Origin: a virus
Reading direction: 5' to 3' (one strand)
IMG/VR virus record: IMGVR_UViG_3300045988_179268
Location: 96,001 to 160,000 of that record
DNA: 64,000 bases
The position numbers and the translations under genes were made by a program. The notes under the pieces are model-generated. The model was not told the origin of the DNA and did no database searches. It was given only the letters and a program-made list of their open reading frames with translations. The first letter of the stretch is position 1; each line of letters opens with the position of its first letter. Of this stretch, positions 4,410 through 64,000 are shown piece by piece.

Positions 4410-4597
4410 TATAATAAAAGCATAAAGGAATGAACCCAAGAACGGCTCATCAGATACAAGCAGGGAAGTTGCCAACCAAGCCCCGAAGGGACACCTGAAT
4501 GGTACACTGGGGAATAGAAGCAATAACAACAGCAACAACCTGCTAAGCACTAAGAGCACTCGGCAAAGCTGAATATGGGTCATAACCGAAACACCCG

Positions 4598-4630
4598 AGG
4601 GGCGTACAAGTTACTATCTTGTACGCCCCT
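4598..4630. terminator. 13-bp perfect hairpin in the 328-bp gap after the SbcC-like gene
   Basis: aggggcgtacaag / cttgtacgcccct with a 7-nt loop. No U-tract on the plus strand. Confidence 0.4.
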
Positions 4631-4737
4631 TAAAACATGCCTCAGCCAAAAAGACACACAAAACCACCTTGAACATATAACATGCACCACACTAAAATAT
4701 AACCTGTCACAACCACCAAACATTAAATGAGGCACAA

Positions 4738-5328: not shown

Positions 5329-5349
5329 GGAAGGAAGGTCTAATCTTCT

Positions 5350-35625: not shown

Positions 35626-37191
35626 ATGCCTGCCGGACTGTCACTATCAGCGCTCAAACAGAACAACCACAACCCTGCCAGCCGTGAAAAAGACGAAGAA
35701 AACCGACTAAAAAACCTCAGCGCAAGCATCACCCAATACGCAGAAGACCAGCTTCCACCACCGGCACCTGAGCCTGACGTAGCGGAAGCTGAGCCGCCCG
35801 TGCCTGCCATTGACCAAGAAGCGTTAATGGCAGAAATTCTGCGTCAAGTACGAGAAGAACACAATAAAGCATCTGTCCCGCAAACGGCAGTCGTCACCAG
35901 TGACGACCTTGCCGCCGCATCAAAAGAAAAATACGGCTCCGTGGAACCAGCAGGGGAGTACAGCGCCCTCCGTAAATCCACACCCACCAGCCTCATAGAA
36001 CCCGACAACTTCCCGCTCAGTAGCATCATCACAGACGCATACGACATGGGAGCAAGCGACGTTTACATCCAACCCGAAACACCTATTCGATTCAAGGTGG
36101 GTGGCGGCTTAGCGCCCTACTACCAGCAACCTACACCTACCCGCAACGATGTTTCACGTCTACTTGAAAAAGTTACTCAGACTACCTCTTCTACAACGTT
36201 CCGCGCTGAAAAAGAACTAGACATTTCCTACACCATCCCTAAAGGAAAATACGCTGGCAGAAGGTGCCGTCTTAACGTAACATACGTTTCACCGGGTCTG
36301 TCGAACATCAATATGGTGTTCCGACTACTCGCTACCGACATTCAAGACCCATCCTACTACAACGTACCCAAAGCTTTCATTGATGCACTTCATCAAAAAG
36401 CAGGGCTTATCGTAGTCGCAGGCGTTACAGGTAGCGGTAAAACAACCACCATCGCATCAGGTCTATACTACGCGCAATGCAACGTCACAACACCACACCC
36501 CGTCACCGGCGAACCAATGGGCGTAACTATCGTCACCATCGAACAGCCAATCGAGTACCTATTCGACAACAACAACCCCAACTCAAACGGTAGCCTATTC
36601 ATCCAGCGAGAAGTGAACACCGACACACGCTCATTCCTCAACGGCATCAAATCAGCGCTACGCCAAAACCCGAACATTATGCTTATCGGTGAGGTGCGTA
36701 ACGAGCTGGAAATCCAAGCCGCGTTACGCGCCGCTGAAACAGGTCACCTTACCCTAACCACCGTCCACGCACAGGACTGTGCAGGCATCATTGAACGCTT
36801 AGCGACCAATGATGACGGTACGCTACGCGCAAATTCATTAGCTTCCATCGCATCTAGCGGGCGCGTATTCATGACGCAGGCACTAGTCAAGCGCATGGAT
36901 GGCGGGCTAATTCCTGCACATGAAGTCTTAGAGATTAGGCAATCGGACAGAGTGCTTATTGAAGACATCAAAACAGGCAATATTTCCGACATTCGCCAAC
37001 GCCTACAAGATGAAGGCGAAGACATGTGCTCCACTCTTATGAATTTGTGCCGTGCTGAAACGGGTCCCTGTTACGTTAAGGATGCGCTAGAACACGCGCC
37101 TGACCCGCACAGGTTCCTCACCCTTATCCGCACAGCCGAGGCAAACGGCGAACAGTTCAACTACCACCCAGACGAACTAAAAAACATTTAG
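35626..37191 (+). CDS. PilT/PilB/GspE-family secretion ATPase (type II/IV secretion NTPase)
   Basis: ASDVYIQPETPIRFKVGG, Walker A AGVTGSGKTTT, LIGEVRNELE and AAETGHLTLTTVHA. Confidence 0.85.
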   Translation: MPAGLSLSALKQNNHNPASREKDEENRLKNLSASITQYAEDQLPPPAPEPDVAEAEPPVPAIDQEALMAEILRQVREEHNKASVPQTAVVTSDDLAAASKEKYGSVEPAGEYSALRKSTPTSLIEPDNFPLSSIITDAYDMGASDVYIQPETPIRFKVGGGLAPYYQQPTPTRNDVSRLLEKVTQTTSSTTFRAEKELDISYTIPKGKYAGRRCRLNVTYVSPGLSNINMVFRLLATDIQDPSYYNVPKAFIDALHQKAGLIVVAGVTGSGKTTTIASGLYYAQCNVTTPHPVTGEPMGVTIVTIEQPIEYLFDNNNPNSNGSLFIQREVNTDTRSFLNGIKSALRQNPNIMLIGEVRNELEIQAALRAAETGHLTLTTVHAQDCAGIIERLATNDDGTLRANSLASIASSGRVFMTQALVKRMDGGLIPAHEVLEIRQSDRVLIEDIKTGNISDIRQRLQDEGEDMCSTLMNLCRAETGPCYVKDALEHAPDPHRFLTLIRTAEANGEQFNYHPDELKNI

Positions 37192-37458: not shown

Positions 37459-39102
37459 CTAAAACTCAAAAGCTGAAACGCCATCAAAAACAGACCCATC
37501 AGGGCGACACAAACGAATAGCGCGGATACGGTCATCACAACCATTCGCCAACGCCCACTCATTCACCTTACGCATCATACGGTCACCAGTACACAACCAC
37601 AATACCTGACCAAACACGCTCCTATCATCCTTATACTGCCCCAAAATAGTCTCCAAACGACCAGGCTTCTTACCGAAGCCACGCTCAATCTCAACAGCAA
37701 CACTGCGAGGCTCCCCATCCTCGCCACGCGGAACCATGCACACAATATCCGGCACATGGTACTTCGTCTCAGACGCACCACTCATTACCGCCCACATCCA
37801 CTCATTACCGCCGTAACACTCAGGAGAAACCCCAACACCACCAGCCGCACGCCAACTACGCAACACCTCACCACGGCGCGCAATCAAAACATCGCGCACG
37901 TCAAACCCAGCACGACCCCTAAACATTCCATGAATAGCGCCATTAATCACACGGTCAGGAATCACACTGAAACCACGAGCAACCTGCCCACCAACAACAC
38001 GACCACCAGATACTAAACCACCCAACCCCAAAACATCAACCGCACCATTCACCAACATCGCCCCCACATAATGAATAAGAGTACGATGCTGAAACTCGCT
38101 ATTACCCAGCGTCTTACGCGACACAGTAGCCCCACCAACACCAAACTCATCCAAACCCACACGTGTACCAACCCATACCGTATGACGCAAACCAGGAATG
38201 TCCACCGCCTCCAAACAGCCACGCCCCTGCAACCCCTTCAAATACTTCAACGCCGTAACCCTAGTAGAAACCCCCAACAACAACATCACAGCACGCACAT
38301 CAACCCAGCCAAACAGCCCAACAAACCCCATAATCTCAACCTCACGGCGCGAACCCATCAAACGCGGCGCAACACCACCATCCCCCTTGGAAGCCCTACG
38401 CACACGCTTCAAGCGCTCAGCCACAACATCCGGCGACTCACCAACCAACGGCGGAGACACAACATCAACCTCCCCAACACGAGACAGCCAATAAGAAGCC
38501 TGCTCCAACGCCAAACCATTAGAAACCTCAGTAGAACTCATACGCGAACCTCTCCCATCGTAATCAAAACGAAAACATGACAACTCACCAACACCAGCAC
38601 CTAGCCCCAAACCTCCCGGCGGCGCAACCAACCCACCTAACTCAACACCAACAGCATCACCTAAAGCCTCAACCCCCACACCAGACGCAGGAACAACAAA
38701 CCCATCCTGAATCGCCTCAAAATCAACACCATTCACGCCACCAAAAGACCACCTAGCGCGCGGAGTAACACCAAAAGAAAACCCGCCATGCACAAAAACA
38801 CCACCAACCGTAGAAACAACAGACCCATCCCAAACATACCCAGCACACTCCGCCGCAAAAGACCTAAACGCAACAGGAACCTGCGAAAAATCACGCACAC
38901 CCCGCGCACGCTCCAACACAGACCCATCCTCAACCGCAACACCAGACCCCAACACAAAACCATTCACCAAATGCCCAACACTGAACCCCGCATCACCCAA
39001 CTCACGAATAGACCCAGACCCAGAAAAAACATCCGGCGCTAAACCCTCAACAACCTTACGACCAACATTAACAACAGCCGAAGAAACAGACCCATCAACC
39101 AT
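37459..39102 (-). CDS. Replic_Relax (plasmid replication-relaxation)-like protein with G/V-rich N-terminal extension
   Basis: Start moved to ATG 39102 (GGAGG 7 nt upstream). wHTH-like VRAVMLLLGVSTRVTALKYLKGLQGRGCLEAV, HRTLIHYVGAML, and a PD-(D/E)xK-like VPDIVCMV...AVEIERGFGKK..LGQY. Confidence 0.55.
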   Translation of the reverse strand: MVDGSVSSAVVNVGRKVVEGLAPDVFSGSGSIRELGDAGFSVGHLVNGFVLGSGVAVEDGSVLERARGVRDFSQVPVAFRSFAAECAGYVWDGSVVSTVGGVFVHGGFSFGVTPRARWSFGGVNGVDFEAIQDGFVVPASGVGVEALGDAVGVELGGLVAPPGGLGLGAGVGELSCFRFDYDGRGSRMSSTEVSNGLALEQASYWLSRVGEVDVVSPPLVGESPDVVAERLKRVRRASKGDGGVAPRLMGSRREVEIMGFVGLFGWVDVRAVMLLLGVSTRVTALKYLKGLQGRGCLEAVDIPGLRHTVWVGTRVGLDEFGVGGATVSRKTLGNSEFQHRTLIHYVGAMLVNGAVDVLGLGGLVSGGRVVGGQVARGFSVIPDRVINGAIHGMFRGRAGFDVRDVLIARRGEVLRSWRAAGGVGVSPECYGGNEWMWAVMSGASETKYHVPDIVCMVPRGEDGEPRSVAVEIERGFGKKPGRLETILGQYKDDRSVFGQVLWLCTGDRMMRKVNEWALANGCDDRIRAIRLCRPDGSVFDGVSAFEF

Positions 39103-39165
39103 CAGGAAACCTCCAAAACTTATAAAGAAACTCGCAATCCACATAGCCGAAAACCCACGGCAATG

Positions 39166-39176
39166 TGTGATACAAT
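39166..39176 (+). promoter_or_regulatory. extended -10 promoter (tgTGaTACAAT) for the lipoprotein cassette
   Basis: tgtgatacaat matches the element-wide consensus. It interlocks back-to-back with the minus-strand -10. Confidence 0.45.
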
Positions 39177-39183
39177 CATACCA
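39175..39183 (-). promoter_or_regulatory. extended -10 promoter (TGgTATGAT) for 37459..39102
   Basis: The minus strand reads ttggTATGAT. ~70-nt leader to ATG 39102. Confidence 0.45.
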
Positions 39184-39216
39184 ACCAAACCCCCACCACA
39201 TCAAAGGAAAATCCCC

Positions 39217-39429
39217 ATGAAGAAGCTGTACAACATCGCAGGACTCACCTTAATCGCCACGCTTACCCTCACCGGATGCGGCAATAGTGAGAACACCCAA
39301 AAACCAGATACCACCAAGACATCCCAATCCGAAACAGACAGCCCACGCCGCGTAGTGAAACCCTGCGGGGCAGACACCACCGGCGACATTGAAATGGGTC
39401 AGGGACTCTGCGACCACGAAGAAAGGTAA
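39217..39429 (+). CDS. small lipoprotein
   Basis: MKKLYNIAGLTLIATLTLTGCGNSEN has a signal peptide plus the lipobox LTGC. RBS AAGGAAA. The tracked start 39163 would overlap the promoters. Confidence 0.6.
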   Translation: MKKLYNIAGLTLIATLTLTGCGNSENTQKPDTTKTSQSETDSPRRVVKPCGADTTGDIEMGQGLCDHEER

Positions 39430-39441
39430 CGAACAAACACT

Positions 39442-39720
39442 ATGGAATCATTCATCTACGGAGTTGTTAAAGTAACTCTCGAATACCACACGTACCCCAA
39501 TAACCCGGAAAAGAACCATATTGAAACCCGTGCATGGTACCTAGACGATAATAACAACAAAATTAAAACTGTCAGCACTAGTGACAACCCCCAAATGGAA
39601 GTAGTTCACGCCCTCTCAGAACACAACAAGCCAGTATACCAGAACGGTTTAGTGGGTGAGATGCTAGTCATTAATACAAATGACTACTCAATCTTCGAAA
39701 CCAAATACATTACCCACTAA
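39442..39720 (+). CDS. hypothetical protein (ordinary, AT-leaning composition)
   Basis: 92-aa ORF followed directly by a strong terminator. Confidence 0.55.
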   Translation: MESFIYGVVKVTLEYHTYPNNPEKNHIETRAWYLDDNNNKIKTVSTSDNPQMEVVHALSEHNKPVYQNGLVGEMLVINTNDYSIFETKYITH

Positions 39721-39726
39721 CAAAAA

Positions 39727-39773
39727 AGTATCCCTTAAACTCTCTACAGAGAAGAGTTTAAGGGATACTTTTT
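39727..39773 (+). terminator. rho-independent terminator
   Basis: 17-bp stem agtatcccttaaactct / agagtttaagggatact, then ttttt. Confidence 0.8.
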
Positions 39774-39787
39774 GCCCTATATTTTAA

Positions 39788-40588
39788 CTAACGCCAAGAC
39801 TCCGCGTGGTTCAAATCGCCTTCACAATACGCATAAACAACATCAAACATCTCAGGATACTGCTTAATAAACTCCGCCGGACTCATGCCAGCATACGCCA
39901 AACTAGGACCACCAATCAAAAGCGCCGTCTGAGTCGAACTAAAAGCATCGGAAGACCCATACACCCCCAAAAGCTTCACAATATCCTCCCTCACAGAACC
40001 GCCCTCAAACTGGAAACCAGGGTACCCCATGACACCCACCCACGCCGGATGCTTCGAAAAATCGGACAAAGGGAACCTAAGCACACGATTACTCTTAACC
40101 ATCTCCTCCAACTCACCCGAAGTCACACCCAAATACTCACAGACAGCACGCTCCGTATAGACACCCTGCAAATCTTCACCAAACACCGACTCCACGGCAG
40201 TAAGACCCCTTGAACCCTTGGCGACGGCAGTGTCAATCCCCTCACAAATGTAAGAAGTAAGCTTCTCCCCGTCACCCTCAGCGACATCAAGATACCCCGC
40301 CTCGCACAAGTCATCAACAGCCTTGCAAAGCATCTCCTTAACCCCCTCAACAGTTAGCGGGAACTTGCCTCTACCACCATAAGCAGAATAATAAGGCTGA
40401 GAACCCTCACGTTCACGAAGCATAAACAGCCCAACAGCCGCACAACAATGAAACAGCAAAACACGTTGAAGAGACTCAGTAATCACAACATCACCAGAGC
40501 CAACCTTCACATCAACATACTCACAAACCTCCTGCTTCACACCAGCAAGAACCTCAGCCTGCGCACTAGAAATAACACGAGAAGACAT
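39788..40588 (-). CDS. hypothetical protein, HTH-like plus C-terminal 'FQF...SP' module (family 2)
   Basis: 266 aa. ERAVCEYLGVTSGELEEMVKSNRVL, GYPGFQFEGG and LIGGPSLAYAGMSPAEFI. Confidence 0.55.
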   Translation of the reverse strand: MSSRVISSAQAEVLAGVKQEVCEYVDVKVGSGDVVITESLQRVLLFHCCAAVGLFMLREREGSQPYYSAYGGRGKFPLTVEGVKEMLCKAVDDLCEAGYLDVAEGDGEKLTSYICEGIDTAVAKGSRGLTAVESVFGEDLQGVYTERAVCEYLGVTSGELEEMVKSNRVLRFPLSDFSKHPAWVGVMGYPGFQFEGGSVREDIVKLLGVYGSSDAFSSTQTALLIGGPSLAYAGMSPAEFIKQYPEMFDVVYAYCEGDLNHAESWR

Positions 40589-40629
40589 TAAGCAACCCCC
40601 ACAATAGAAAGAAAAATAAGTGCAAAACT

Positions 40630-40638
40630 ATGATACCA
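40630..40638 (-). promoter_or_regulatory. extended -10 promoter (TGgTATCAT) for 39788..40588
   Basis: The minus strand reads tttggtatcat ~40 nt upstream of ATG 40588. Confidence 0.45.
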
Positions 40639-40713
40639 AACAAGGCAACACAAACACTAAAAACTGGGAGGGGTGAAACAAAAAACTTCACCCCTCCCAG
40701 CACCTACAAACGG

Positions 40714-41910
40714 CTACCCGCAATACCGCACAACCGCAAGAACCGCATCCACATACTCATCACCAAGACGCGCATACTCAACAGGCGCAACCAACCCAAA
40801 CCACGGCGACGGACTCTCCAAAAACTCAACAATACGGTCATCACCCCAACCCCAATCACGCAACTCACCCACAAGACGCACAGACCCAGAGAAAAACACC
40901 CAATCAATCACTAACCCATCATCCCCATAAACAGGCATCAGATGCACACCCTCAACAATATAATCGCCATCCCCATACTTCCCCGCCAGCAACTCGCCAG
41001 ACTCACACATACCCGCCACTACATCCTCAGGAACCCCCAACCCCTTAGCTACCTTGTGGGGTGGCAAACCAGCCCAACGGACACCATTAGAACGCTCATC
41101 AATACTAGCGAAACGGTGAACCAAAACACCCCACGGGACACGCAAAACCTCAGCCAAAGCCCCCAAATCAGCCAAAGAACCGCCACCCACAGACGGAACA
41201 ACACCTGCCACCGTCAAAGCAACAACATTCCCCGGCACTGGAACATTACCCACACCAGCACGCCCCCACGCACGCCCAACAACCTCAGCGCGCCGCCCCA
41301 ACGCACATTCACGCGCATCATCCAACACAAGAGCAACCAGAGCCTCATCACCCGACATCAACAACTCAGCCGCCGACAAAAACCCATACTCAAACGACGG
41401 CGTGAACAAAAAATCATCAGTAATATGAGGCTTCACACCAACAGCCCTGAACATCTTCACACACTCAAAAAACTCAGGGTTAAACCTCAAAGCGCCCTCA
41501 CCAGACACACTCCAAACTCCCTTACCGGCACCACCCCAAAACTGGGCACGAGTAAACAGCAAAGCACCCTCCCAGATGCCACCATTAAGGTAACCCTCCT
41601 CATACAGGCGCATCACCTCAGTGCCCGGCAACCCCTTATCCTCCAGCTCAGCCAAAGACAACCCGTCACCCCACTCACAATAAATACCCCACCCGGCAGA
41701 ACCGCCTCCAAACGCTTCCTCCAAACGCTCATACATGAACTCAGTAGAGACACCAAGAACACTAGAAACTAGCTCAAAATGCTCATTCTCCCAATCATAA
41801 GTAGACTTGGGAAGCCCTAAAGAACGAACCCTCAACACATCCTCAGCAGAGAAAAACTTGAAGCCAGGGTACTCATCAAAAACATTGTGCAACATGGAAG
41901 TAGCCTCCAA
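40714..41910 (-). CDS. hypothetical protein (family 2, duplicated module)
   Basis: 398 aa. GGAGG RBS before ATG 41910. G/V/W-rich. C-terminus FLESPSPWFGLVAPVEYARLG. Confidence 0.55.
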   Translation of the reverse strand: MEATSMLHNVFDEYPGFKFFSAEDVLRVRSLGLPKSTYDWENEHFELVSSVLGVSTEFMYERLEEAFGGGSAGWGIYCEWGDGLSLAELEDKGLPGTEVMRLYEEGYLNGGIWEGALLFTRAQFWGGAGKGVWSVSGEGALRFNPEFFECVKMFRAVGVKPHITDDFLFTPSFEYGFLSAAELLMSGDEALVALVLDDARECALGRRAEVVGRAWGRAGVGNVPVPGNVVALTVAGVVPSVGGGSLADLGALAEVLRVPWGVLVHRFASIDERSNGVRWAGLPPHKVAKGLGVPEDVVAGMCESGELLAGKYGDGDYIVEGVHLMPVYGDDGLVIDWVFFSGSVRLVGELRDWGWGDDRIVEFLESPSPWFGLVAPVEYARLGDEYVDAVLAVVRYCG

Positions 41911-42054
41911 AAGAAAAACAAAAATACTTGCACTCCCTATAATACCCCCCCCCTCAAAAAATCAAGAAAACACGCCGGTAAACATCTCTAGATACAATAC
42001 ATCCCACGCATAGAAGAGAATTAGAACACCCCTAAAGAGCATCCATCGCAAATA

Positions 42055-42065
42055 TGTGGTACAAT
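42055..42065 (+). promoter_or_regulatory. extended -10 promoter (tgTGgTACAAT) for 42179..43000
   Basis: Exact match to the island consensus. The ~110-nt leader contains the perfect hairpin ggttgagg-tgag-cctcaacc (42077-42096). Confidence 0.5.
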
Positions 42066-42178
42066 CTAAACATGAAAGGTTGAGGTGAGCCTCAACCCAC
42101 CACCCCACCCTAACCATACAGGGAACCCAAAAAAGGGGCGAACACCCAATCATTAAACACAGAAAGAGAGCATCAACA

Positions 42179-43000
42179 ATGCGAAACATCACCCCCTTCC
42201 TCTACTGGGAAACCCTCAACACCAACGACGGTATCCTCCTCATCCCCACCGACAACACCACCAACGACCGCATGGCAATCTACACCATCGACCAGGTAAC
42301 CAACACCGACCACGCCACCGCACGCCTGCGCCACGCAAGCTTCAACGCACCCAAGACCATCACCCTCACCCGCACCAACGGACAGCTCACCACCAACGAC
42401 CTACCAGACCTCAAAGCCGTAAACATCGGCACCCGAGGCGACGCTATCGAACCCACCTACTACGCCGTCGAAAACGACGACAACATCACCATCTGGTACA
42501 GCACCGAACACTACAACGACATCGCCATCGCACACACCCTCAAAGCCAACGGAGAAACCCGCGTAATCTTCCACGAACCCGACGAATACGATACCCCCGA
42601 AGGCGGGTACAACATCTGGACAGTCCTCCAAGCAACCGAAAACTACGAAGACACCGACACCCTCCCCGAAACCTTCAACATCCCAGAAGCCAACACCGCA
42701 CCTCTCACCCCCGAAACCGCACTAGCACTCCACGACACCCTCAACCACCCCGAATACCACACCCTCAACGACAAAGAAACCCTCGAAGAAGAACTAATCT
42801 CCCTCTGGCAAAACATCTCAGACTACTACGCAATCCCTGGCGAAATGCACTGGGTATCCGACACTGAAATCCTCTGGCGCGCCAAAGACTACCTCACCAC
42901 CGTACACGACATCGCAATCAAAGAAGGACGCGCCAACCTAGCCAACCAAACCCTCCACCACATCAACACCATCACCACCCACACCAACTACGAAGAATAA
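42179..43000 (+). CDS. hypothetical T/N/D/H/E-rich protein (A+C-rich coding strand)
   Basis: 273-aa ORF with diverse, protein-like sequence (..ILWRAKDYLTTVHDIAIKEGRANL..). It has its own promoter. Only one short mirror ORF lies antisense. Confidence 0.55.
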   Translation: MRNITPFLYWETLNTNDGILLIPTDNTTNDRMAIYTIDQVTNTDHATARLRHASFNAPKTITLTRTNGQLTTNDLPDLKAVNIGTRGDAIEPTYYAVENDDNITIWYSTEHYNDIAIAHTLKANGETRVIFHEPDEYDTPEGGYNIWTVLQATENYEDTDTLPETFNIPEANTAPLTPETALALHDTLNHPEYHTLNDKETLEEELISLWQNISDYYAIPGEMHWVSDTEILWRAKDYLTTVHDIAIKEGRANLANQTLHHINTITTHTNYEE

Positions 43001-43021
43001 CCCCCAAAACACCAAAAGATA

Positions 43022-43057
43022 CCCCTGGCAACCCGCACAAACACGGGAAACCAGGGG
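43022..43057 (-). terminator. hairpin terminator, U-tract only on the minus strand
   Basis: cccctgg / ccagggg with inner cccg / cggg. The minus strand continues tatcttttggtgtttt. Lies 27 nt after the stop of minus ORF 43084..45360. Confidence 0.55.
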
Positions 43058-43083
43058 CATCTTCCTATACCACCAACAACACA

Positions 43084-45360
43084 CTAACCACCCAAAACCG
43101 ACACAACCTCACCCACCGAAACACCCAACCCCAACACCGGCGAACCAACCGGCACATCAACCCAACCACCAGAAACACCCCAACCAGAACGACCAAACAA
43201 CCCAGCAGACCCACCACCACCAGAAACAACCCCCACCGGCGAACCAAACCCCTCACTACCAGCCACAAACCCCAAACCCAACCCACCATCCAAACCACCA
43301 CGCCCAGAAACAACCGAACCAACAACACCAGACAAAACACGCCCACCAACAGACCCCAAAACACCATCCAAACCACCACGCAACAACCCCCACAAAACAC
43401 CAGAACCCAAACCCGCAACCCTACCAAACACCGGACAAACCCCCGACAACCCCAAACCACCACCAACACCAGACACCACATCAACCAACCCCACCACAGA
43501 CGAAACACCCCTCAAACCACCAACCAAAGAACCCACCGGCGACCCACCAGGCAAAACACCACCACCAAACACACCCGACAAACCCCCAACACCCCACAAA
43601 CCAGACACACCATCAACCACACCACCACAAGAACCAGCAACCCCCACCGACAAAACACCACCACCAAACACCGACCCAAACCCCACAGGAACAAGCCCCG
43701 CCCCAAACACAAGAGAACGCCACAACCACCCATCAACATCAACCACAGCCCCAACACCCCCATCAACAAAACCACCATCAACATCAAAACCCTCAACAGC
43801 ACCAACAACACCAGACACACCCGGCACAAAACCACCAGCCCCAACACCCCAAACACCAACCCTACGCCCAAAACCAGCCCCAACACCACCACCACCCAAA
43901 ACACCCAAACCAGCAGACGACAAACCCCAAGAACAAGACAACCCGCCAACACCAGAAACACCCCCACCAACCGGCAACCCAAAAACCCCAACAACACCCG
44001 ACAAATCAACACCAAACCCCGAAACAGAACCCAAACCAGCCAACGCATCCAACCCAGACACCCCCGACACCAACCACGGCACAGCAACCCCAACACCACC
44101 AGAAACCCCACCAACATCCGCCGCACCAGCACCCACACCACCAAACCCAGCAGAGCCAACCCCACCAAAATCAACCCCACCGACAAAATCACCAACGGGC
44201 AAACCAATCGGCAAACCGCACACCCCAGACCCCATAAACAACCCCACTGGCGAACAACCCAACATGCCCAATAACCCATCAACCCCACCAGCCACAGAAC
44301 CACCAAACCCAGACGAAGAACCAAACCTCACGCCAGAACCACCCACAACACCAAACAAACCCGAACCTCTAGAAGCCCCCACAGACCTATTAAAACTAGT
44401 AGAAGGTAAAACAGTACCGCCAATAGACAAAACACCCTCAGAAGCCCCCTCAAGCCCCGTAGAAACCCCCTCTATAGTAACCCCATCAGTAGCAGGCTCA
44501 GAAAACTCCTCGCCACCACCCCAAAAACCCTCAACAAAACCGCCACCAACACCAACCCCCACAAAACCCCCAACACCATCCACAACACCAGACGAGCCCC
44601 ACCCCACCGACACACCAACCCCCACAGGCTCAACAAAACCGGCACCACGAAGCGAACCACCCCAAACACCAACCCGCCCATCAACCCCCAACAACCCAAC
44701 AACACCAGAATCAACGCCCCACAACTCAACACCAACCCCACCCGGAACAAACACCCCACACACACCACCAGACAACCCATCCCCCAACAACCCAGAACCC
44801 AAACCACCAACACCAACACCAGACTCCAAAACACCACGCCCAACAACCACAACAACCACACTCCAAAAAAGAAAAAACAAAAAAATAGTACACCACAAAC
44901 ATAGCCACAAAAACACCCCCACCCAGACAACCCCCAAAAAACAAAACCCCCAACACCCACCCAACAAACAAAAACCCCACAAAAACACCCCCACAACAAA
45001 AAAAACCAAACCAACCACCCCAAGCAAACCCCAAAAAACAACGCACCACAAACCCAAAACCACACAAAGAACTTGGGCAACACTAAAAATAAACACCAAA
45101 AACACGAATAACCAAGACACAAGACACAAGAGAAAAGGAAAAAGCAACAAGACATAACAGACACAGACACGCAAAGAGGAAAGCAATAACACTACAAAGA
45201 AAGAAGTACCCAGGATAAACAGATACACAAAATAAACACCAATACACGACAGACATAGAGGATAAGCGCAGACACATACACCATAAACAGAAAGAAGCAC
45301 AGGCACACAATACGCAAGCACAGAAAAACACGAAGGCAACAACAGATACAAGAGACACAC
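43084..45360 (-). CDS. candidate G/V/S-rich low-complexity protein (start uncertain; coding strand unresolved)
   Basis: 758-codon stop-free frame, with a minus-strand terminator just downstream. Composition resembles the G/V-rich N-terminus of 37459..39102. The N-terminal C/W/F-rich 170 aa look unnatural. Confidence 0.3.
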   Translation of the reverse strand: MCLLYLLLPSCFSVLAYCVPVLLSVYGVCVCAYPLCLSCIGVYFVYLFILGTSFFVVLLLSSLRVCVCYVLLLFPFLLCLVSWLFVFLVFIFSVAQVLCVVLGLWCVVFWGLLGVVGLVFFVVGVFLWGFCLLGGCWGFCFLGVVWVGVFLWLCLWCTIFLFFLFWSVVVVVVGRGVLESGVGVGGLGSGLLGDGLSGGVCGVFVPGGVGVELWGVDSGVVGLLGVDGRVGVWGGSLRGAGFVEPVGVGVSVGWGSSGVVDGVGGFVGVGVGGGFVEGFWGGGEEFSEPATDGVTIEGVSTGLEGASEGVLSIGGTVLPSTSFNRSVGASRGSGLFGVVGGSGVRFGSSSGFGGSVAGGVDGLLGMLGCSPVGLFMGSGVCGLPIGLPVGDFVGGVDFGGVGSAGFGGVGAGAADVGGVSGGVGVAVPWLVSGVSGLDALAGLGSVSGFGVDLSGVVGVFGLPVGGGVSGVGGLSCSWGLSSAGLGVLGGGGVGAGFGRRVGVWGVGAGGFVPGVSGVVGAVEGFDVDGGFVDGGVGAVVDVDGWLWRSLVFGAGLVPVGFGSVFGGGVLSVGVAGSCGGVVDGVSGLWGVGGLSGVFGGGVLPGGSPVGSLVGGLRGVSSVVGLVDVVSGVGGGLGLSGVCPVFGRVAGLGSGVLWGLLRGGLDGVLGSVGGRVLSGVVGSVVSGRGGLDGGLGLGFVAGSEGFGSPVGVVSGGGGSAGLFGRSGWGVSGGWVDVPVGSPVLGLGVSVGEVVSVLGG
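44264..45157 (+). CDS. alternative reading: P/T/K/N-rich disordered protein (frame open from 43088)
   Basis: By hand translation the plus frame is stop-free over 43088-45157, but there is no ATG/GTG/TTG before 44264 and no RBS. Shares wobble positions with the minus ORF. Confidence 0.2.
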   Translation: MPNNPSTPPATEPPNPDEEPNLTPEPPTTPNKPEPLEAPTDLLKLVEGKTVPPIDKTPSEAPSSPVETPSIVTPSVAGSENSSPPPQKPSTKPPPTPTPTKPPTPSTTPDEPHPTDTPTPTGSTKPAPRSEPPQTPTRPSTPNNPTTPESTPHNSTPTPPGTNTPHTPPDNPSPNNPEPKPPTPTPDSKTPRPTTTTTTLQKRKNKKIVHHKHSHKNTPTQTTPKKQNPQHPPNKQKPHKNTPTTKKTKPTTPSKPQKTTHHKPKTTQRTWATLKINTKNTNNQDTRHKRKGKSNKT

Positions 45361-45709: not shown

Positions 45710-45772
45710 TGTGGCGCGGGGTATTTTTGGGTGTTTCGGTATGTGGGGGAATGTATCATTTGCCCTAGTCAG
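45710..45772 (+). repeat. 63-bp direct repeat, copy 1
   Basis: tgtggcgcggggtatttttgggtgtttcggtatgtgggggaatgtatcatttgccctagtcag is identical to 45955-46017. Confidence 0.9.
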
Positions 45773-45811
45773 GACGTTTTTGCGTTTTGGGTGACAGGGC
45801 TGTAGTAGTGG

Positions 45812-45954: not shown

Positions 45955-46017
45955 TGTGGCGCGGGGTATTTTTGGGTGTTTCGGTATGTGGGGGAATGTA
46001 TCATTTGCCCTAGTCAG
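45955..46017 (+). repeat. 63-bp direct repeat, copy 2
   Basis: Identical to 45710-45772. The two tracked ORFs read the repeat in different frames, so it is probably non-coding. Confidence 0.9.
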
Positions 46018-46058
46018 CGCGTTATGCACTTTGGTACAGATTCTCATTTTCAGGGGTT

Positions 46059-49409: not shown

Positions 49410-49503
49410 ATGACGGCTAGGTGTTGTACGTGGTGTGCGGCTAACTAATATAGTTCTTTGTGTCCCACTTCACACATATTTGGCTTGCATACAGTTTTAA
49501 ATC

Positions 49504-49514
49504 TGTGATAGACT
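49504..49514 (+). promoter_or_regulatory. extended -10 promoter (tgTGaTAGACT), with TTGCAT -35 at 18-nt spacing
   Basis: aatctgtgatagactata is nearly identical to the boxes at 55920 and 57231. Confidence 0.55.
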
Positions 49515-49586
49515 ATAAATATAAGGCAAGCGGGAAAGAAACCCGAAAGCCACGAAGCATCAACCAACTACCGAAGGGTGGCAACC

Positions 49587-55831: not shown

Positions 55832-55919
55832 GGAATACTAGCATATAAGAGAAGAATGCATCTATGGTAGTATGGATGTTCCACCTCGCCTATATTTGCT
55901 TTGCGCATGGTTTAGAATC

Positions 55920-55930
55920 TGTGATAGACT
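55920..55930 (+). promoter_or_regulatory. extended -10 promoter (tgTGaTAGACT), with TTGCGC -35 at 18-nt spacing
   Basis: aatctgtgatagactata is the same 18-mer as at 49501-49518. Confidence 0.55.
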
Positions 55931-56001
55931 ATAGGTGTAGCAAGGAAGATGATTTCCAATGAAAAGCTACAGCCACTTTCCTAGACTGAGAGGTTGTCGT
56001 T

Positions 56002-57178: not shown

Positions 57179-57230
57179 TCTATTCCTTAAAGGTGTGACA
57201 GATTCCGTTTCGGGTGTATGACGCTAAATC

Positions 57231-57241
57231 TGTGATAGAAT
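57231..57241 (+). promoter_or_regulatory. extended -10 promoter (tgTGaTAGAAT)
   Basis: aatctgtgatagaatata. Confidence 0.5.
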
Positions 57242-57307
57242 ATATGTGTAGGGCAAGCAGATTGGAAACCTGATGTCCATTTAAACCCACTGAAAGGATT
57301 GTTAATC

Positions 57308-58400: not shown

Positions 58401-59264
58401 ATGATTGCCCCATACACGTTCTTAATTCCGCTAGTTGTCGGCGGTATTGGTATCCTCGCCTCAGTCTGGCTATTTAAGACGTTTGTCAGTAATGATGCTG
58501 ACGGCGGCGATTCTCGCCACTGGTGGATGAATTGCACCCATGTAGGTGTCTGGGTCGTACTGCTACTGTCCCTGCTGATTGTTGGTGTGGTAACCAAGCC
58601 TGGAGAGGCGGCATTCGGGAACCTGCTGACTGGTTGGGGTGTTGGAGGGTTTATCGCCCTTGTCGTTAGCGTGCTTCTCCTGATGCTATTTGATGCTTTC
58701 GATGAGGATGACGGGTTGTGGGCTGGTCGTGTGCTTCGCACCTGGTCTACCGTAGGTCTGCTTCTCCTGACGCAAGGCTTGTGGAGTGCTAGTGCTTCAC
58801 CGTCCAGGTTTGGTTCAAACCCGGTGTCGCTAGAGTATGCGGTTGCCGCCGATGGCTCCAAAACATCTGTGGTGTCTGAAAAATATCAGCTAGTGAAAGG
58901 TGAATCTGAGACGTGGGTTTCTGTAGGTAAAGAAGACCGTGGTAGTAAAGAACCTGTTCAGGTATATTCATGGGTTGAGGCTCGTGAACTATCCTCCTCA
59001 GGCGAGGTGCTGGTTGCCTCTAAGGTAATCTATAAGTCGGATGAGGATGAGGTTGCCGTGATTGATGATGTCCCAGCAAACGGCAAAGCCTGGGTTGAGT
59101 ACAGAGACATGTTCTACCTCGCCCCCGCCGGTCTCCTAGATTCTTCCCGCCCAGACCCCCTACAGGGTAAGCTGTGCGTACAGGGTCGAGATAGCGGATG
59201 CGCGGTGAACGCGAAGCCCGCATACAAGAAGATTATGATTCACGTACCAATGGGCGGAAAGTAG
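58401..59264 (+). CDS. membrane protein with C-terminal extracytoplasmic domain
   Basis: 287 aa. 4 N-terminal TM helices, then a soluble beta-rich domain. RBS AGGAAGG. Confidence 0.6.
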   Translation: MIAPYTFLIPLVVGGIGILASVWLFKTFVSNDADGGDSRHWWMNCTHVGVWVVLLLSLLIVGVVTKPGEAAFGNLLTGWGVGGFIALVVSVLLLMLFDAFDEDDGLWAGRVLRTWSTVGLLLLTQGLWSASASPSRFGSNPVSLEYAVAADGSKTSVVSEKYQLVKGESETWVSVGKEDRGSKEPVQVYSWVEARELSSSGEVLVASKVIYKSDEDEVAVIDDVPANGKAWVEYRDMFYLAPAGLLDSSRPDPLQGKLCVQGRDSGCAVNAKPAYKKIMIHVPMGGK

Positions 59265-62232: not shown

Positions 62233-62252
62233 CTAACACCCGGAGAGGTGGT

Positions 62253-62282
62253 CGCCCGCGTATCGCCAAGGACACGCGGGCG
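62253..62282 (+). terminator. GC-rich hairpin after 61843..62232
   Basis: cgcccgcgt / acgcgggcg. No U-tract. Confidence 0.5.
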
Positions 62283-62706
62283 GTTCCATACCCAATACAT
62301 CCCAGCAATATGCGGGGCAACTATCTGGTGCCACCATCATTAATTAGGACAAGTTGCTTTTCTATCGGCGTGAAGACATGATGCTCCCTATATTCTTCTT
62401 CCAGATGATAACCCCTTAGTGGATGAGGTCTATACCCCATCTCAGTAAGGGGTTATCTCTATACCGATGTCCCCCGCTAGTCGTTGGCGCGGCTATTGCC
62501 AGGCTGGGTCTGTCTCTAAGGGCGTCCTCACTGAATGATGCGCGCCCTTAAGATTCTCCCCTGAGAGATTGAAGATACTCTCAACAATGAAGCACTGATT
62601 GTCGAGAGTATCGGTGTCACCAAGAAACTTTCCCAGTCCCTTAAGCTGGTTGCCGAATAAGGCTTTCATTGCATCAAGAAGAGCCGCCCATCAGTAAGAG
62701 ATATTG

Positions 62707-62712
62707 TACAAT
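62707..62712 (+). promoter_or_regulatory. -10 hexamer TACAAT upstream of structured-RNA copy 1
   Basis: ttgTACAAT ends 10 nt before the conserved acctcgcc, the same spacing as in copy 2. Confidence 0.4.
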
Positions 62713-62721
62713 ATAAATAAC

Positions 62722-62911
62722 ACCTCGCCTGTGAGAGATGGGAGAGGTGTTGAATCTAAACGGATAGGTGACTCTGGTTGCCTGTCAAGACCAGGATAGC
62801 TGGCTCAGGTCGGCTTGAGGGTCACCGTTAGGGAGAATCCCTGACCCACCCAGACATGGAAGAGTAGATATATTATCATGTCTTCTCTTGCGTGTTTTGA
62901 GGTGGCTCTAC
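62722..62911 (+). ncRNA. putative structured RNA, copy 1 (~190 nt; family not recognised)
   Basis: No ORF. Conserved blocks shared with 63545-63752. Hairpins supported by compensatory changes between the copies. Confidence 0.5.
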
Positions 62912-63061
62912 GAAAAAATTGTGTTGCACGTACCTGCTGGAACCACAAAGTAAAAGGTGCCCTGCTGATATTTATCCTCTAACCGTGGGCGCGTATCGTA
63001 GATAGTGTGGCTAAAGCCGCTCAGGTTTGCGAGGGCTGGCAGTTGTGCCACCTATTAAAGT

Positions 63062-63072
63062 TGTGATAGAAT
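63062..63072 (+). promoter_or_regulatory. extended -10 promoter (tgTGaTAGAAT)
   Basis: gttgtgatagaat matches the consensus. Confidence 0.45.
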
Positions 63073-63078
63073 GGATTT

Positions 63079-63184
63079 GTCCTCCTTAAGGGGTGGATGT
63101 CATTGTGGATGGGGCTCCCCGGCAATTCACTATGTGACCTGCGGATGTTTGGTCATATGGCGGCTTGCCGGGGTGTTTCTTTAT
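63079..63184 (+). ncRNA. candidate ~105-nt sRNA with 5' CCUCC motif
   Basis: Promoter at 63062. Terminator ccccggcaa / ttgccgggg (63117-63173) plus tgtttcttt. The 5' region reads tgtcctccttaagggg. Confidence 0.3.
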
Positions 63185-63526
63185 GCTCGGCAATATCTTT
63201 ATTACATAACGGTTGCCTGCATTATAATTGCTATGGGTGACGGAATGGTTTCCTTGGTTGATGTGGGCGTGTCGCTTGCAAAATTACACGTTGCTGTGTT
63301 ATATTTAGAAATGACTGCCTCCTGTTGGCAATTCTTTCTTTCTGGGTGACCCCAAGTTTCATTATGCGGATTCTGCTTACTCGCGTAATGGGGCTTGGGG
63401 TTTCTTCTTTGTAGGCATCTCCCTTATAGACAATATGGCATTAGGTTCGAAACCCCTGCCTGGGCAAGCGGGCGACCCCCTTATTTGCGCCGCCTGCATC
63501 CCTAACTCGCAGATAGTTAAAAGATA

Positions 63527-63535
63527 TGGTATAAT
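63527..63535 (+). promoter_or_regulatory. extended -10 promoter (TGgTATAAT) upstream of structured-RNA copy 2
   Basis: tatggtataat ends 10 nt before acctcgcc. Confidence 0.55.
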
Positions 63536-63544
63536 CCAAGTATT

Positions 63545-63752
63545 ACCTCGCCTGTGAGAGACGGGAGAGGTCGTTAAAATAAACGGACACTACTAAGCTC
63601 AGATGGGTTACGGTGGTGTCAAGACCAGGAGGGCTGACCCTTTGTTGGGTTGGCTTGAGGGTTACCGTCAGGGAGAATCCCTGACCCACCCAGCCGTTGG
63701 GAGAGTAGGCATACCATCATGCCTTTTCTCGCGTGTTTTGAGGTGGCTCTAC
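63545..63752 (+). ncRNA. putative structured RNA, copy 2 (~208 nt)
   Basis: Same conserved 5' end (acctcgcctgtgagaga), core (gtcaagaccagga; ggcttgagggt.accgt.agggagaatccctgacccacccag) and 3' end (gcgtgttttgaggtggctctac) as copy 1. Confidence 0.5.
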
Positions 63753-63780
63753 TTTGAGAGCATCTAGCCCCTAGTTACGT

Positions 63781-63811
63781 AAACCCCCTACAGGAAGCCC
63801 ATAGGGGGTTT
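63781..63811 (+). terminator. rho-independent terminator
   Basis: aaacccccta / tagggggttt, a 10-bp perfect stem. Confidence 0.75.
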
Positions 63812-64000
63812 ATTGGTATTCACTATCACCTTATCGCGCTTCTTTTCAGCCTTGAAAGCCCCTCAGTCGCCACGTAAGCCAGGAAAACCAATGATTACTA
63901 AAATCCCCCATAGTACACAGTAAAAGGTGTTAGAATCGCTTTCAACGGCTTTCTAGGCGTGTCGCCACACCATTTGCGTAACCCGTAATCTTTATGCTAA

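What the first reader, a model, noticed from the sequence alone, without database searches (positions are those of the whole stretch)
62700..63815. Two diverged copies of a ~190-208 nt promoter-driven, ORF-free RNA with compensatory base changes
Seen in the sequence:
- Copies at 62722-62911 and 63545-63752 share conserved blocks. These are the 5' acctcgcctgtgagaga, aaacgga, gtcaagaccagga, ggcttgagggtYaccgtYagggagaatccctgacccacccag, and the 3' gcgtgttttgaggtggctctac. Variable stretches separate them.
- Each starts 10 nt after a -10 box (TACAAT; TGgTATAAT). Neither contains an ORF.
- Hairpin 1 is gggtc..aggga-gaa-tccct-gaccc. Copy 2 changes C to U, keeping a G-U pair.
- Hairpin 2 is agatat-attatc-atgtct in copy 1 (one U-G pair) versus aggcat-accatc-atgcct in copy 2. 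That is a full A-U to G-C compensatory swap plus a U-G to C-G change.
- The 5' (acct / cgc / gagaga) and 3' (tctctt or tttctc / gcg / aggt) ends can pair to close the molecule in both copies.

Inference: this is a structured RNA under selection, present in two paralogous copies. I could not match it to any RNA family I know. Resemblances to the GGGNGAAAUCCC-type elements of riboswitches are superficial.
Basis: partly seen in the sequence, partly recalled or inferred. Interest (0 to 1): 0.8.

Follow-up and report, generated by a model that had tools for sequence, protein, structure and literature searches.

The report
Orphan Cas12n guide RNAs in jumbo phage
The two "mystery" RNAs are real, strongly structured RNAs, but they belong to a known kind: they are self-contained guide RNAs for a miniature CRISPR nuclease (Cas12n) carried by a very large phage-like element, and they are laid out in an unusual dispersed form.

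Summary
Two copies about 85% identical (62721-62908 and 63544-63749, + strand) each sit just downstream of a -10 box and fold far better than shuffles (z about -5).

Rfam has no match. A covariance model built from metagenomic homologues finds more than 60 diverged copies. Across 50 of them, 39 of 51 base pairs show compensatory changes.

The family has a known identity. It is the guide-RNA scaffold of a Cas12n (type V-N, TnpB-derived) nuclease.
- Copies lie about 20 nt after the stop codon of a 521-523 aa gene that matches the solved Rothia dentocariosa Cas12n (E 3.5e-176).
- The model also hits the 3' end of the cas12n gene in a Rothia-type chromosomal contig, where the Cas12n tracrRNA is known to lie.
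- The last ~26 nt of the scaffold is the CRISPR repeat, with 58-61 nt repeat-spacer arrays downstream in both bacterium and phage.

So each window copy is a tracrRNA plus first repeat fused into one molecule, with its own promoter and one spacer. w2 also has a terminator.

A 358-kb contig of the same phage type carries an intact cas12n.

What looks new is the layout. There are dispersed orphan guide genes, and arrays where guide RNAs alternate with tRNAs. w1 has also replaced a gene, so its guide matches the intact allele in sister genomes.

Verdict: new variant of a known kind.

The parts
62233..62908 (+). 676-bp strain-specific cassette carrying w1. It replaces 955 bp (intergenic DNA plus most of a 290-aa membrane-protein gene) present in the 99%-identical relative L010.
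   Evidence: BLAST of the window end against L010, L009 and L002 and the L010 sequence. The 290-aa ORF is a paralogue of window 58401-59264. Segment 62233-62720 has no homologue in any fetched locus.
62707..62712 (+). -10 box (TACAAT) of w1, ending 8 nt before the scaffold start.
   Evidence: Sequence. The same position holds TGnTAnAnT before other copies that lack an upstream tRNA.
62721..62908 (+). w1: guide-RNA scaffold (tracrRNA-like body fused to the first CRISPR repeat), ending ...GAGGUGGCUC.
   Evidence: Covariance model R1: 177.4 bits, E 1e-56, full length. Fold z = -5.1.
62909..62953 (+). Guide position of w1. It is the retained last 14 codons plus stop (YEKIVLHVPAGTTK*) of the displaced 290-aa gene. 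It is identical over 36 nt to the intact gene in L010, and over 29 nt (from +4) in L002 and L009.
63527..63535 (+). Extended -10 box (TGgTATAAT) of w2.
   Evidence: Sequence. Conserved in L002, L009, L010 and L011.
63544..63749 (+). w2: guide-RNA scaffold (tracrRNA-like body plus repeat).
   Evidence: R1: 199.6 bits, E 6e-64. Fold z = -5.0.
63750..63781 (+). Guide (spacer) region of w2: UAC, shared with w1 and w3, then UUUGAGAGCAUCUAGCCCCU... Sister strains carry 9 or 16 extra nt exactly at the scaffold/guide junction.
63782..63814 (+). Terminator-like hairpin (ACCCCCUA...UAGGGGGU followed by UUAUU) that would end the w2 transcript.
   Evidence: Sequence. The scan lists the inner part, 63795-63811.

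Best explanation
w1 and w2 are orphan single-guide RNA genes of a phage-borne type V-N CRISPR-Cas12n (TnpB-derived) system.

Each gene encodes one molecule. A roughly 190-205 nt scaffold corresponds to the Cas12n tracrRNA covalently continuous with the first CRISPR repeat, and it is followed directly by one spacer. Transcription starts from an extended -10 promoter about 8-10 nt upstream. In w2 it ends at an intrinsic terminator about 30 nt after the scaffold.

The RNA would load in trans onto the 521-523 aa Cas12n nuclease, which is encoded elsewhere in the same ~290-360 kb genome next to a tRNA/guide-RNA array. It would then direct the nuclease to DNA complementary to the 3' guide.

w1 arose when such a unit was inserted in place of a membrane-protein gene. 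Its guide is therefore the remaining tail of that gene and matches the intact allele in sister phages. This is the same logic as a TnpB omega-RNA, whose guide is whatever flanks the element.

Shown here:
- the structure and its covariation;
- homology to the Cas12n scaffold and repeat;
- adjacency to cas12n in related genomes;
- presence of cas12n in a genome of the window's type;
- the gene replacement at w1.

Inferred:
- that the RNAs are transcribed and bound by the nuclease;
- that they guide cleavage or binding;
- that w1 promotes conversion or exclusion of the intact allele.
For: 1. A real RNA family. A metagenome scan gave homologues. Model R1 finds 34-50 full-length diverged copies, all on one strand. 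On 50 copies, 94.6% of cells are paired, 39 of 51 pairs show changes on both sides, and 265 such cells compare with 18-51 in slid controls and 69 in shuffles.

2. Adjacency to the nuclease gene. A copy starts 19-21 nt after the stop codon of a TnpB-like gene in L008, L005 and L014-L017, and 22-23 nt after it in L025 and L027. Another copy lies just upstream of the gene.

3. The gene is a Cas12n orthologue. P0030 against PDB 9J09/9UDI (RdCas12n) gives E 3.5e-176 over residues 19-520. RuvC D/E/D and the zinc finger are intact in P0220.

4. The bacterial system has the same RNA. R1 hits L018-L021 at 5554-5804 (E 3e-7), overlapping the 3' end of the cas12n ORF (4001-5680). These are Rothia-type chromosomal contigs; NCBI assigns the protein to Rothia mucilaginosa. 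The literature places the Cas12n tracrRNA at that position (PMC12216341).

5. The scaffold's 3' end is the repeat. L018 has 7 repeats with a 61-nt period, the first being the end of the R1 hit. Phage locus L005 has 5 and 4 repeats with 58-61 nt periods.

6. Architecture agrees with the cryo-EM description of five stems plus a pseudoknot between the 3' end and the stem-1 loop. The GAG/CUC pairing is 95.7% paired and becomes GGC/GCC in the L022 copies; the Rothia-type L018 sequence also reads GGC/GCC by eye, though it was not aligned in these columns (PMC12216341).

7. The window's phage type has the effector. Record ERZ27263257:k119_33714 (358,494 nt) carries an ATPase 97% identical to window 35626-37191. 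It also carries an intact 523-aa Cas12n followed by 24 tRNAs and 14 RNA copies.

8. A third copy with the same promoter lies about 1.1 kb beyond the window end (L010 3774-3961).

9. w1's guide equals the intact gene in relatives.
Against: - No cas12n gene lies in the 64-kb window (tblastn). Linkage to the effector rests on a sister genome, not on this contig.
- The nearest TnpB-like gene beyond the window end (L010 5222-6709, minus strand) belongs to a different, distant family.
- No convincing protospacer was found for w2 or w3.
- The sequences 5' of the w1 match (..GCATAC / ..GCCTAT) are not the AAN PAM of Rothia Cas12n.
- Homology downstream of w1 runs on for more than 1 kb. Its 'guide' is therefore an accidental flank, not an acquired spacer.
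- There are no expression data.
Confidence: 0.8

Rival explanations
1. The copies are inert relics. They would be solo right-end/omega-RNA fragments left by past insertion or recombination of a TnpB/Cas12n element, no longer expressed or used.
For: w1's flank is clearly an accident of insertion. No cas12n lies within 64 kb. Truncated copies of 89-140 nt exist elsewhere in the family. Some cas12n genes carry an in-frame stop or a frameshift.
Against: w1, w2 and w3 score among the best full-length matches (177-200 bits). They differ from one another largely by pair-preserving changes. They keep a promoter box at a fixed distance, and w2 keeps a terminator. w2 is conserved in four sister contigs.
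Confidence: 0.1
2. The RNAs are decoys, that is RNA anti-CRISPRs. They would be guide-RNA mimics made by the phage to soak up or misdirect a host Cas12n rather than to arm the phage's own nuclease.
For: The closest named cellular relatives are Rothia Cas12n proteins, and a Rothia-type locus carries a homologous scaffold and repeat. The phage RNAs are multicopy and embedded in highly expressed tRNA arrays. Phage-encoded repeat mimics that inhibit Cas proteins are known (my own knowledge of Racr RNAs, not checked here).
Against: The phages encode their own intact Cas12n immediately next to the arrays. The phage scaffolds are far from the Rothia-type one (25.7 bits against 100-240 bits), as expected if they co-evolve with the phage protein. 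The units carry diverse 3' spacers and true repeat-spacer arrays. The host is not established.
Confidence: 0.06
3. It is an unrelated structured non-coding RNA (riboswitch, ribozyme, Y-RNA-like or retron RNA) that merely neighbours the nuclease gene.
For: There is no Rfam hit. Junction nucleotides are highly conserved. A TROVE/Ro60-like gene and an RNA ligase lie near one array.
Against: The scaffold's 3' end is the CRISPR repeat of the adjacent arrays. The position relative to cas12n is conserved from the bacterium to the phages. The layout of stems and pseudoknot fits the solved Cas12n guide RNA (PMC12216341). No reverse transcriptase and no regulated downstream ORF were seen next to the window copies.
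Confidence: 0.03

Closest known systems
Type V-N CRISPR-Cas12n guide RNA (tracrRNA:crRNA; RdCas12n sgRNA, PDB 9J09/9UDI; PMC12216341)
   Same: The effector orthologue matches at E 3.5e-176. The scaffold is about 190 nt with five stems and a pseudoknot at the 3' end. In the Rothia-type chromosomal locus the scaffold overlaps the end of cas12n. The guide lies 3' of the scaffold. The repeat sequence is homologous (UUCCCCGUAUGCGCGGGGAUGAGCC in the Rothia-type locus against UUCCCCGUACACGCGGGGAUGGCUC in the phage).
   Different: In the window the unit is a stand-alone gene with its own promoter and one spacer (plus, for w2, a terminator), tens of kb from any cas12n. The tracr part and the repeat are one natural molecule, whereas the published sgRNA joins them with an artificial loop. 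The phage copies start after the stop codon rather than inside the ORF. The PAM is unknown, and the PAM-reading PAPEK motif is altered (PAPEA / YAPDT).
TnpB omega-RNA / reRNA, including stand-alone omega-RNAs and omega-RNA arrays (PMC8612924, PMC10691335)
   Same: It is a single long RNA with a 3' guide, and the guide is whatever DNA flanks the unit (the w1 case). Extra effector-less copies that can work in trans, and whole-scaffold arrays, have been described.
   Different: No transposase and no defined transposon ends were found. The effector is a CRISPR-associated derivative (Cas12n) with true short-repeat arrays. The copies are interleaved with tRNAs.
TranC transposon-CRISPR intermediates (LaTranC, PDB 9JFO; named from memory, cited in bioRxiv 10.64898/2026.03.27.714800)
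   Same: The same system uses both a single-molecule omega-like guide and repeat-spacer crRNAs.
   Different: The protein clade is different: LaTranC matches only at E 1e-13, over the RuvC half.
Engineered polycistronic tRNA-gRNA (PTG) arrays (my own knowledge, not checked here)
   Same: tRNAs alternate with guide RNAs on one strand. In three cases noted (two in L005, one in L008) the guide's 3' end abuts the next tRNA after 15-22 nt.
   Different: This one is natural, phage-encoded and for Cas12n. Processing by RNase P or RNase Z is inferred only.
Phage-encoded TnpB-derived type V systems, e.g. Cas12r of Thermus Lalka phages (bioRxiv 10.64898/2026.04.20.719267)
   Same: A phage carries a compact TnpB-like effector with a short degenerate array, proposed to act in conflicts between mobile elements.
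   Different: Cas12r needs no tracrRNA and has no long scaffold, no orphan guide genes and no tRNA interleaving.

Membership tests
Type V-N (Cas12n) guide RNA | A cognate effector homologous to Cas12n, with intact RuvC D-E-D and a zinc finger, encoded in the same genome. | tested here: inconclusive
   Not present in the 64-kb window. Present and intact (P0220: D302, E407, D504, CxxC x2) on a 358-kb contig that also carries an ATPase 97% identical to the window's. The effector family matches RdCas12n at E 3.5e-176.
Type V-N (Cas12n) guide RNA | The scaffold is homologous to the tracrRNA region at or after the 3' end of cas12n. | tested here: met
   R1 hits L018-L021 at 5554-5804 in the Rothia-type contigs (E 3e-7), overlapping ORF 4001-5680. 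In the phages, copies start 19-23 nt after the stop codon.
Type V-N (Cas12n) guide RNA | The 3' end of the scaffold is the CRISPR repeat, with repeat-spacer arrays downstream. | tested here: met
   Met for the family: L018 has 7 repeats with a 61-nt period, and L005 has arrays of 5 and 4 repeats. The window copies carry one repeat and one spacer each.
Type V-N (Cas12n) guide RNA | A five-stem scaffold with a pseudoknot between the 3' end and the stem-1 loop. | tested here: met
   Seven helices that I map onto five stems, with covariation. The pseudoknot GAG/CUC is 95.7% paired and becomes GGC/GCC in the L022 copies (4 cells changed on both sides, so limited depth). The comparison is with the text of PMC12216341, not with coordinates.
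Type V-N (Cas12n) guide RNA | An A-rich 5' PAM (AAN) next to protospacers. | tested here: inconclusive
   One spacer (L008 7014-7049) matches the cas12n gene itself, with flank CCCTAAG or CCCTAAA. The w1 match has flank GCATAC or GCCTAT. No other reliable protospacers were found.
Type V-N (Cas12n) guide RNA | RNA-guided DNA cleavage or binding. | not testable with these tools
   Needs biochemistry.
TnpB omega-RNA of an IS200/IS605 or IS607 transposon | Lies at the right end of a transposon that has a TnpA transposase and defined ends. | tested here: not met
   No transposase was found next to the window copies. A small serine resolvase follows the RNA in L001 and L006, but it is of the resolvase/invertase type with a C-terminal HTH. 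Transposon ends were not defined.
TnpB omega-RNA of an IS200/IS605 or IS607 transposon | The guide is the DNA flanking the insertion and matches the uninterrupted site elsewhere. | tested here: met
   Met for w1 only. 62909-62953 is the tail of the displaced gene and is identical to the intact allele in L010, L002 and L009.
Any Rfam family | A match at or above the gathering score. | tested here: not met
   0 matches for the whole window. Only chance-level hits (E 0.4-9) in 62300-64000.

The most novel reading that the evidence does not exclude
A lineage of ~290-360 kb phage-like elements has turned a Cas12n/TnpB guide RNA into a modular, mobile gene. Dozens of natural single-guide RNAs would be expressed either as tRNA-gRNA polycistrons, cut out by the cell's tRNA-processing enzymes, or as dispersed promoter-terminator units. 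New units would insert into genes so that their guide targets the uninterrupted allele in competing genomes. That would be an RNA-guided homing or exclusion system operating between co-infecting giant phages.
Probability: 0.35. Interest if true: 0.75.

Novelty: new variant of a known kind. Interest (0 to 1): 0.6.

Why it matters
Cas12n is regarded as an early intermediate between transposon TnpB and CRISPR Cas12. These genomes display, side by side, three forms of its guide:
- an omega-RNA-like single guide;
- short repeat-spacer arrays that share the same repeat;
- free-standing guide genes.

That makes the RNA-splitting step of type V evolution visible in nature.

The tight tRNA-then-scaffold spacing (35 of 56 copies start 19-32 nt after a tRNA) suggests a natural counterpart of the engineered tRNA-gRNA multiplexing trick. 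The compact natural single guides could also be useful for engineering Cas12n.

For annotation, the finding adds a covariation-supported RNA family that Rfam lacks.

Tried and rejected
**Searches that found nothing**
- Rfam at gathering and at E-value thresholds: nothing.
- BLAST of the region and of 24 kb of the window against cultured phages and plasmids: nothing.
- IMG/VR scans for three conserved RNA blocks: nothing.
- The first genome scan used a 21-mer one base too specific and found nothing.

**Chance matches**
- The second genome scan gave two Aeromicrobium hits, and the metagenome scan gave L004. All three are chance matches, with no covariance-model hit or flanking similarity.

**Failed look-ups**
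- Exact look-up of three window proteins failed.

**Identities considered and dropped**
- Retron RNA, bridge RNA, Y RNA, SRP/RNase P-like RNA and riboswitch were considered. There is no reverse transcriptase and no recombinase next to the window copies, no Rfam match, and the Cas12n link explains the anatomy.
- The 495-aa TnpB-like gene just beyond the window end looked like the partner. It is only distantly related to the array-linked nuclease (best local alignment E 0.02) and has no scaffold copy beside it.

**Protospacer hunting**
- 73 guides against cultured phages: nothing.
- A 20-nt exact match of the w2 guide to a terminase gene in two IMG/VR contigs. I do not rely on it: a control 18-mer from w1 also hit an unrelated contig by chance, and the target contig has 60% G+C and a Ralstonia-phage-like replication gene.

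**Host**
- The host is not settled. The nearest cellular Cas12n proteins are from Rothia, but that is not evidence of host.
Full report

Yes. The + strand holds two direct copies: w1 at 62721-62908 and w2 at 63544-63749. Both are followed by a shared UAC.

- A 24-nt core occurs exactly twice, against none in 100 shuffles.
- Each copy folds about five standard deviations better than its dinucleotide shuffles.
- TACAAT (62707-62712) and TGgTATAAT (63527-63535) each end 8 nt before the first conserved base.

Two details fail.
- Small ORFs do overlap the copies.
- The proposed helix between the 5' and 3' ends is not what the family shows.

**2. Is it a family under selection for structure?**

Rfam gave nothing at either threshold. 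Cultured phages, plasmids and IMG/VR also gave nothing.

One metagenome scan with a 21-mer returned ten true loci and one chance hit. I built a covariance model from eight distinct sequences.

- The model found 34 full-length copies in those loci, and 50 after more loci were fetched.
- All copies lie on one strand. Many are less than 70% identical to w1 or w2.
- On the 50-sequence alignment, 94.6% of cells are standard pairs.
- 39 of 51 pairs show changes on both sides.
- 265 cells carry such changes, against 18-51 when partners are slid by 1-3 columns and 69 in column shuffles.

The alignment was fitted to the model, which favours the structure. The margin over the slid controls is nevertheless large.

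**3. What does it sit next to?**

In the tRNA-rich loci the RNA alternates with tRNA genes.
- L005 has 19 tRNAs and 9 or more copies. L008 has 22 tRNAs and 13. L027 has 24 tRNAs and 13-14.
- 35 of 56 copies begin 19-32 nt after the 3' end of a tRNA.

In L005, L008 and L014-L017 a copy begins 19-21 nt after the stop codon of a 521-523 aa gene carrying HTH_OrfB_IS605, OrfB_IS605 and Cas12f1-like TNB domains; in L025 and L027 the gap is 22-23 nt. Another copy lies just upstream of the gene.

That protein matches the cryo-EM chain 9J09/9UDI at E 3.5e-176 over nearly its full length. The chain is Rothia dentocariosa Cas12n, the type V-N effector (PMC12216341). NCBIfam places the protein in the RNA-guided TnpB family. 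Its closest named cellular relatives, at 54-57% identity, are Rothia proteins.

**4. Identity of the RNA**

According to PMC12216341:
- the Cas12n tracrRNA overlaps the 3' end of the ORF;
- the scaffold is about 194 nt with five stems;
- a pseudoknot joins the 3' end to the loop of stem 1.

Three results tie the window RNA to this.

- *Position in the bacterium.* The model hits Rothia-type chromosomal contigs (NCBI assigns the protein to Rothia mucilaginosa) at 5554-5804, overlapping the cas12n ORF that ends at 5680 (E 3e-7).
- *The repeat.* The last ~26 nt of that hit is the first of seven repeats, GTTTTCCCCGTATGCGCGGGGATGAGCC, with a 61-nt period. The phage scaffolds end in the homologous UUCCCCGUACACGCGGGGAUGGCUC. 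In L005 they are followed by four and three further repeats at 58-61 nt.
- *The architecture.* I read the model's helices as five stems. The three-base pseudoknot (GAG in the first loop with the terminal CUC) is 95.7% paired and becomes GGC/GCC in the L022 copies; the Rothia-type L018 sequence also reads GGC/GCC, though it was not aligned in those columns.

An alternative partner for the 3' end, AGACCA, also shows compensatory changes. I cannot decide between the two partners.

The RNA is therefore the Cas12n tracrRNA continuous with the first repeat. It is a natural single guide, like a TnpB omega-RNA, with the spacer immediately 3' of it.

**5. Anatomy in the window**

*w2.* It consists of promoter, 206-nt scaffold, about 30 nt of guide and a terminator hairpin (63782-63814). 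Four sister contigs carry the same unit. They have 9 extra nt (GTCATTGAG), or those plus a duplicated GTGGCTC, exactly at the scaffold/guide junction.

*w3.* A third unit with the same promoter lies about 1.1 kb past the window end (L010 3774-3961).

*w1.* This copy sits in a 676-bp cassette (62233-62908). In the 99%-identical relative L010, the cassette's place is taken by 955 bp holding most of a 290-aa membrane-protein gene.
- The junction is exactly at the scaffold's 3' end.
- The last 14 codons and stop of the displaced gene remain (62909-62953) and occupy the guide position.
- They are identical to the intact gene in L010 over 36 nt, and from position +4 over 29 nt in L002 and L009.
- Homology then continues for more than 1 kb. 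The flank is therefore native context, not an acquired spacer.

**6. Does this phage type have the nuclease?**

The window itself has none. The TnpB-like gene 2.5 kb beyond its end is a different, distant family with no scaffold beside it.

However, the contig ERZ27263257:k119_33714 (358,494 nt) carries both:
- an ATPase 97% identical to window 35626-37191;
- an intact 523-aa Cas12n, followed by a 6.9-kb stretch with 23 of the locus's 24 tRNAs and most of its 14 scaffold copies.

L008 (nuclease and array) and L009 (window-like) also come from one assembly at similar coverage.

**7. Mechanism**

*Shown:* structure, homology, gene neighbourhood, and the replacement at w1.

*Inferred:* each unit is transcribed from its own promoter, or within tRNA arrays as part of a polycistron trimmed by tRNA-processing enzymes. 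It binds the phage Cas12n in trans and directs it to DNA matching the 3' guide.

In three array copies I noted (L005 4102-4337 and 5023-5220, L008 12004-12212) only 15-22 nt separate the scaffold from the next tRNA. That is about one guide length.

For w1, the guide would recognise sister genomes that still have the intact gene. This is the situation in which TnpB-type nucleases promote copying of their own locus. The left boundary is not a simple insertion, and the flanking bases are not the AAN PAM of Rothia Cas12n. I therefore hold this step at low confidence.

One spacer does fit that PAM. The first spacer after cas12n in L008 matches the cas12n gene itself (27 nt, 1-2 mismatches) next to CCCTAAG or CCCTAAA.

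**8. Rivals**

- *Inert relics.* Unlikely, given the top-tier model scores, the pair-preserving differences among w1-w3, and the fixed promoter boxes.
- *Decoys against a host Cas12n.* Possible but less economical, because the phages keep their own intact nuclease beside the arrays and their scaffolds have diverged far from the Rothia-type one.
- *An unrelated structured RNA.* Excluded, in my view, by the repeat identity and the conserved position relative to cas12n.

**9. Novelty**

Already described:
- the Cas12n guide RNA (PMC12216341);
- stand-alone omega-RNAs acting in trans, and omega-RNA arrays (PMC10691335);
- phage-borne TnpB-derived type V systems (bioRxiv 10.64898/2026.04.20.719267).

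Five literature searches found no description of:
- Cas12n in giant phages;
- promoter-driven orphan single guides;
- tRNA-interleaved guide arrays.

I therefore file this as a new variant of a known kind. The library lacks most subscription-journal papers, so prior description cannot be excluded.

**10. Limits**

- Host unknown.
- PAM unknown.
- No expression data.
- No reliable protospacers for w2 or w3.
- A 20-nt match of the w2 guide to a terminase gene in IMG/VR is probably chance. A control 18-mer behaved similarly, and the target contig has 60% G+C.

Noticed in passing
window 63749/63750, compared with L002 7563, L010 2433 and L009 11914: Near-identical sister strains differ exactly at the scaffold/guide junction of w2. 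The window reads GGCTC|TAC. L002, L010 and L011 read GGCTC|GTCATTGAG|TAC. L009 also duplicates GTGGCTC. GTCATTGAGTA also occurs in the 290-aa gene of L010 (about 1037-1047), preceded by AAG. This could mark a hot spot or a trace of how guides are exchanged.
   Followed up: partly
L010 5222-6709 (minus strand), about 2.5-4 kb beyond the window end: A second TnpB-like gene (495 aa, Cas12f1-like TNB domain, with RuvC-like and zinc-finger motifs visible by eye in the sequence). It is only distantly related to the Cas12n orthologue and has no scaffold copy next to it.
   Followed up: partly
L008 6293 (also L025 and L026): The cas12n gene has a single in-frame TAG where L005 and others have CAG (Gln). 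L005 instead has a frameshift. This could be pseudogenes, assembly errors or TAG recoding. ARAGORN listed no suppressor tRNA.
   Followed up: partly
L008 7014-7049 against L008 6694-6720 (and L005, L014-L017, L028): The first spacer after cas12n matches the cas12n coding sequence itself (zinc-finger region, 27 nt, 1-2 mismatches), preceded by CCCTAAG or CCCTAAA, an AAN-type PAM. This could be autoregulation or targeting of rival copies.
   Followed up: partly
L014 2147-2176 and L015 1864-1893: Some sequences in the guide position are diverged fragments of tRNA genes (tRNA-Val D-arm to variable loop; tRNA-Asp) present in the same arrays. The target flank is GGT, not AAN.
   Followed up: partly
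L005, L008, L025, L027, L014 (tRNA arrays): 35 of 56 scaffold copies start 19-32 nt after a tRNA 3' end. The short linker often forms a small hairpin (for example GCGCUUUCGGGCGUGCGC).
   Followed up: partly
L014 8323-9393 and 21316 onwards: An RNA ligase gene sits immediately upstream of cas12n. A TROVE (Ro60-like) plus VWA protein lies about 10 kb downstream. Together these look like an RNA repair or quality-control gene set beside the tRNA/guide arrays.
   Followed up: no
window 49461-49546, 55877-55933, 57225-57273: Three copies of a conserved promoter-like block (..TAAATCTGTGATAGACTATA..), 77-78% identical to the first copy, lie upstream of + strand genes.
   Followed up: no
window 45710-45778 and 45955-46023: A 69-nt direct repeat, 97% identical, 245 nt apart, in an intergenic stretch.
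   Followed up: no
window 37459-45360 (minus strand): Long ORFs (581 and 758 aa) on a strongly C/A-rich + strand, with pervasive short degenerate repeats and no Pfam or PHROG match for the 581-aa one. My guess is glycine-rich repetitive proteins, possibly fibres.
   Followed up: no
window 62493-62669 (minus strand) and hairpins at 62242-62290 and 62406-62460: The w1 cassette also carries a 58-codon ORF transcribed away from w1 and two strong hairpins. The whole 62233-62720 segment has no homologue in any fetched locus.
   Followed up: partly
L029 990-1009 and L030 (IMG/VR contigs): A 20-nt exact match of the w2 guide (63753-63772) lies inside a terminase large-subunit gene of an unrelated 60% G+C phage contig. 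A control 18-mer from w1 also hit an unrelated contig, so this is probably chance.
   Followed up: yes
L001 944-1657 and L006 12869-13582: A small serine resolvase/invertase (Resolvase plus HTH_7 domains) lies about 220 nt downstream of a scaffold copy in two related contigs.
   Followed up: no
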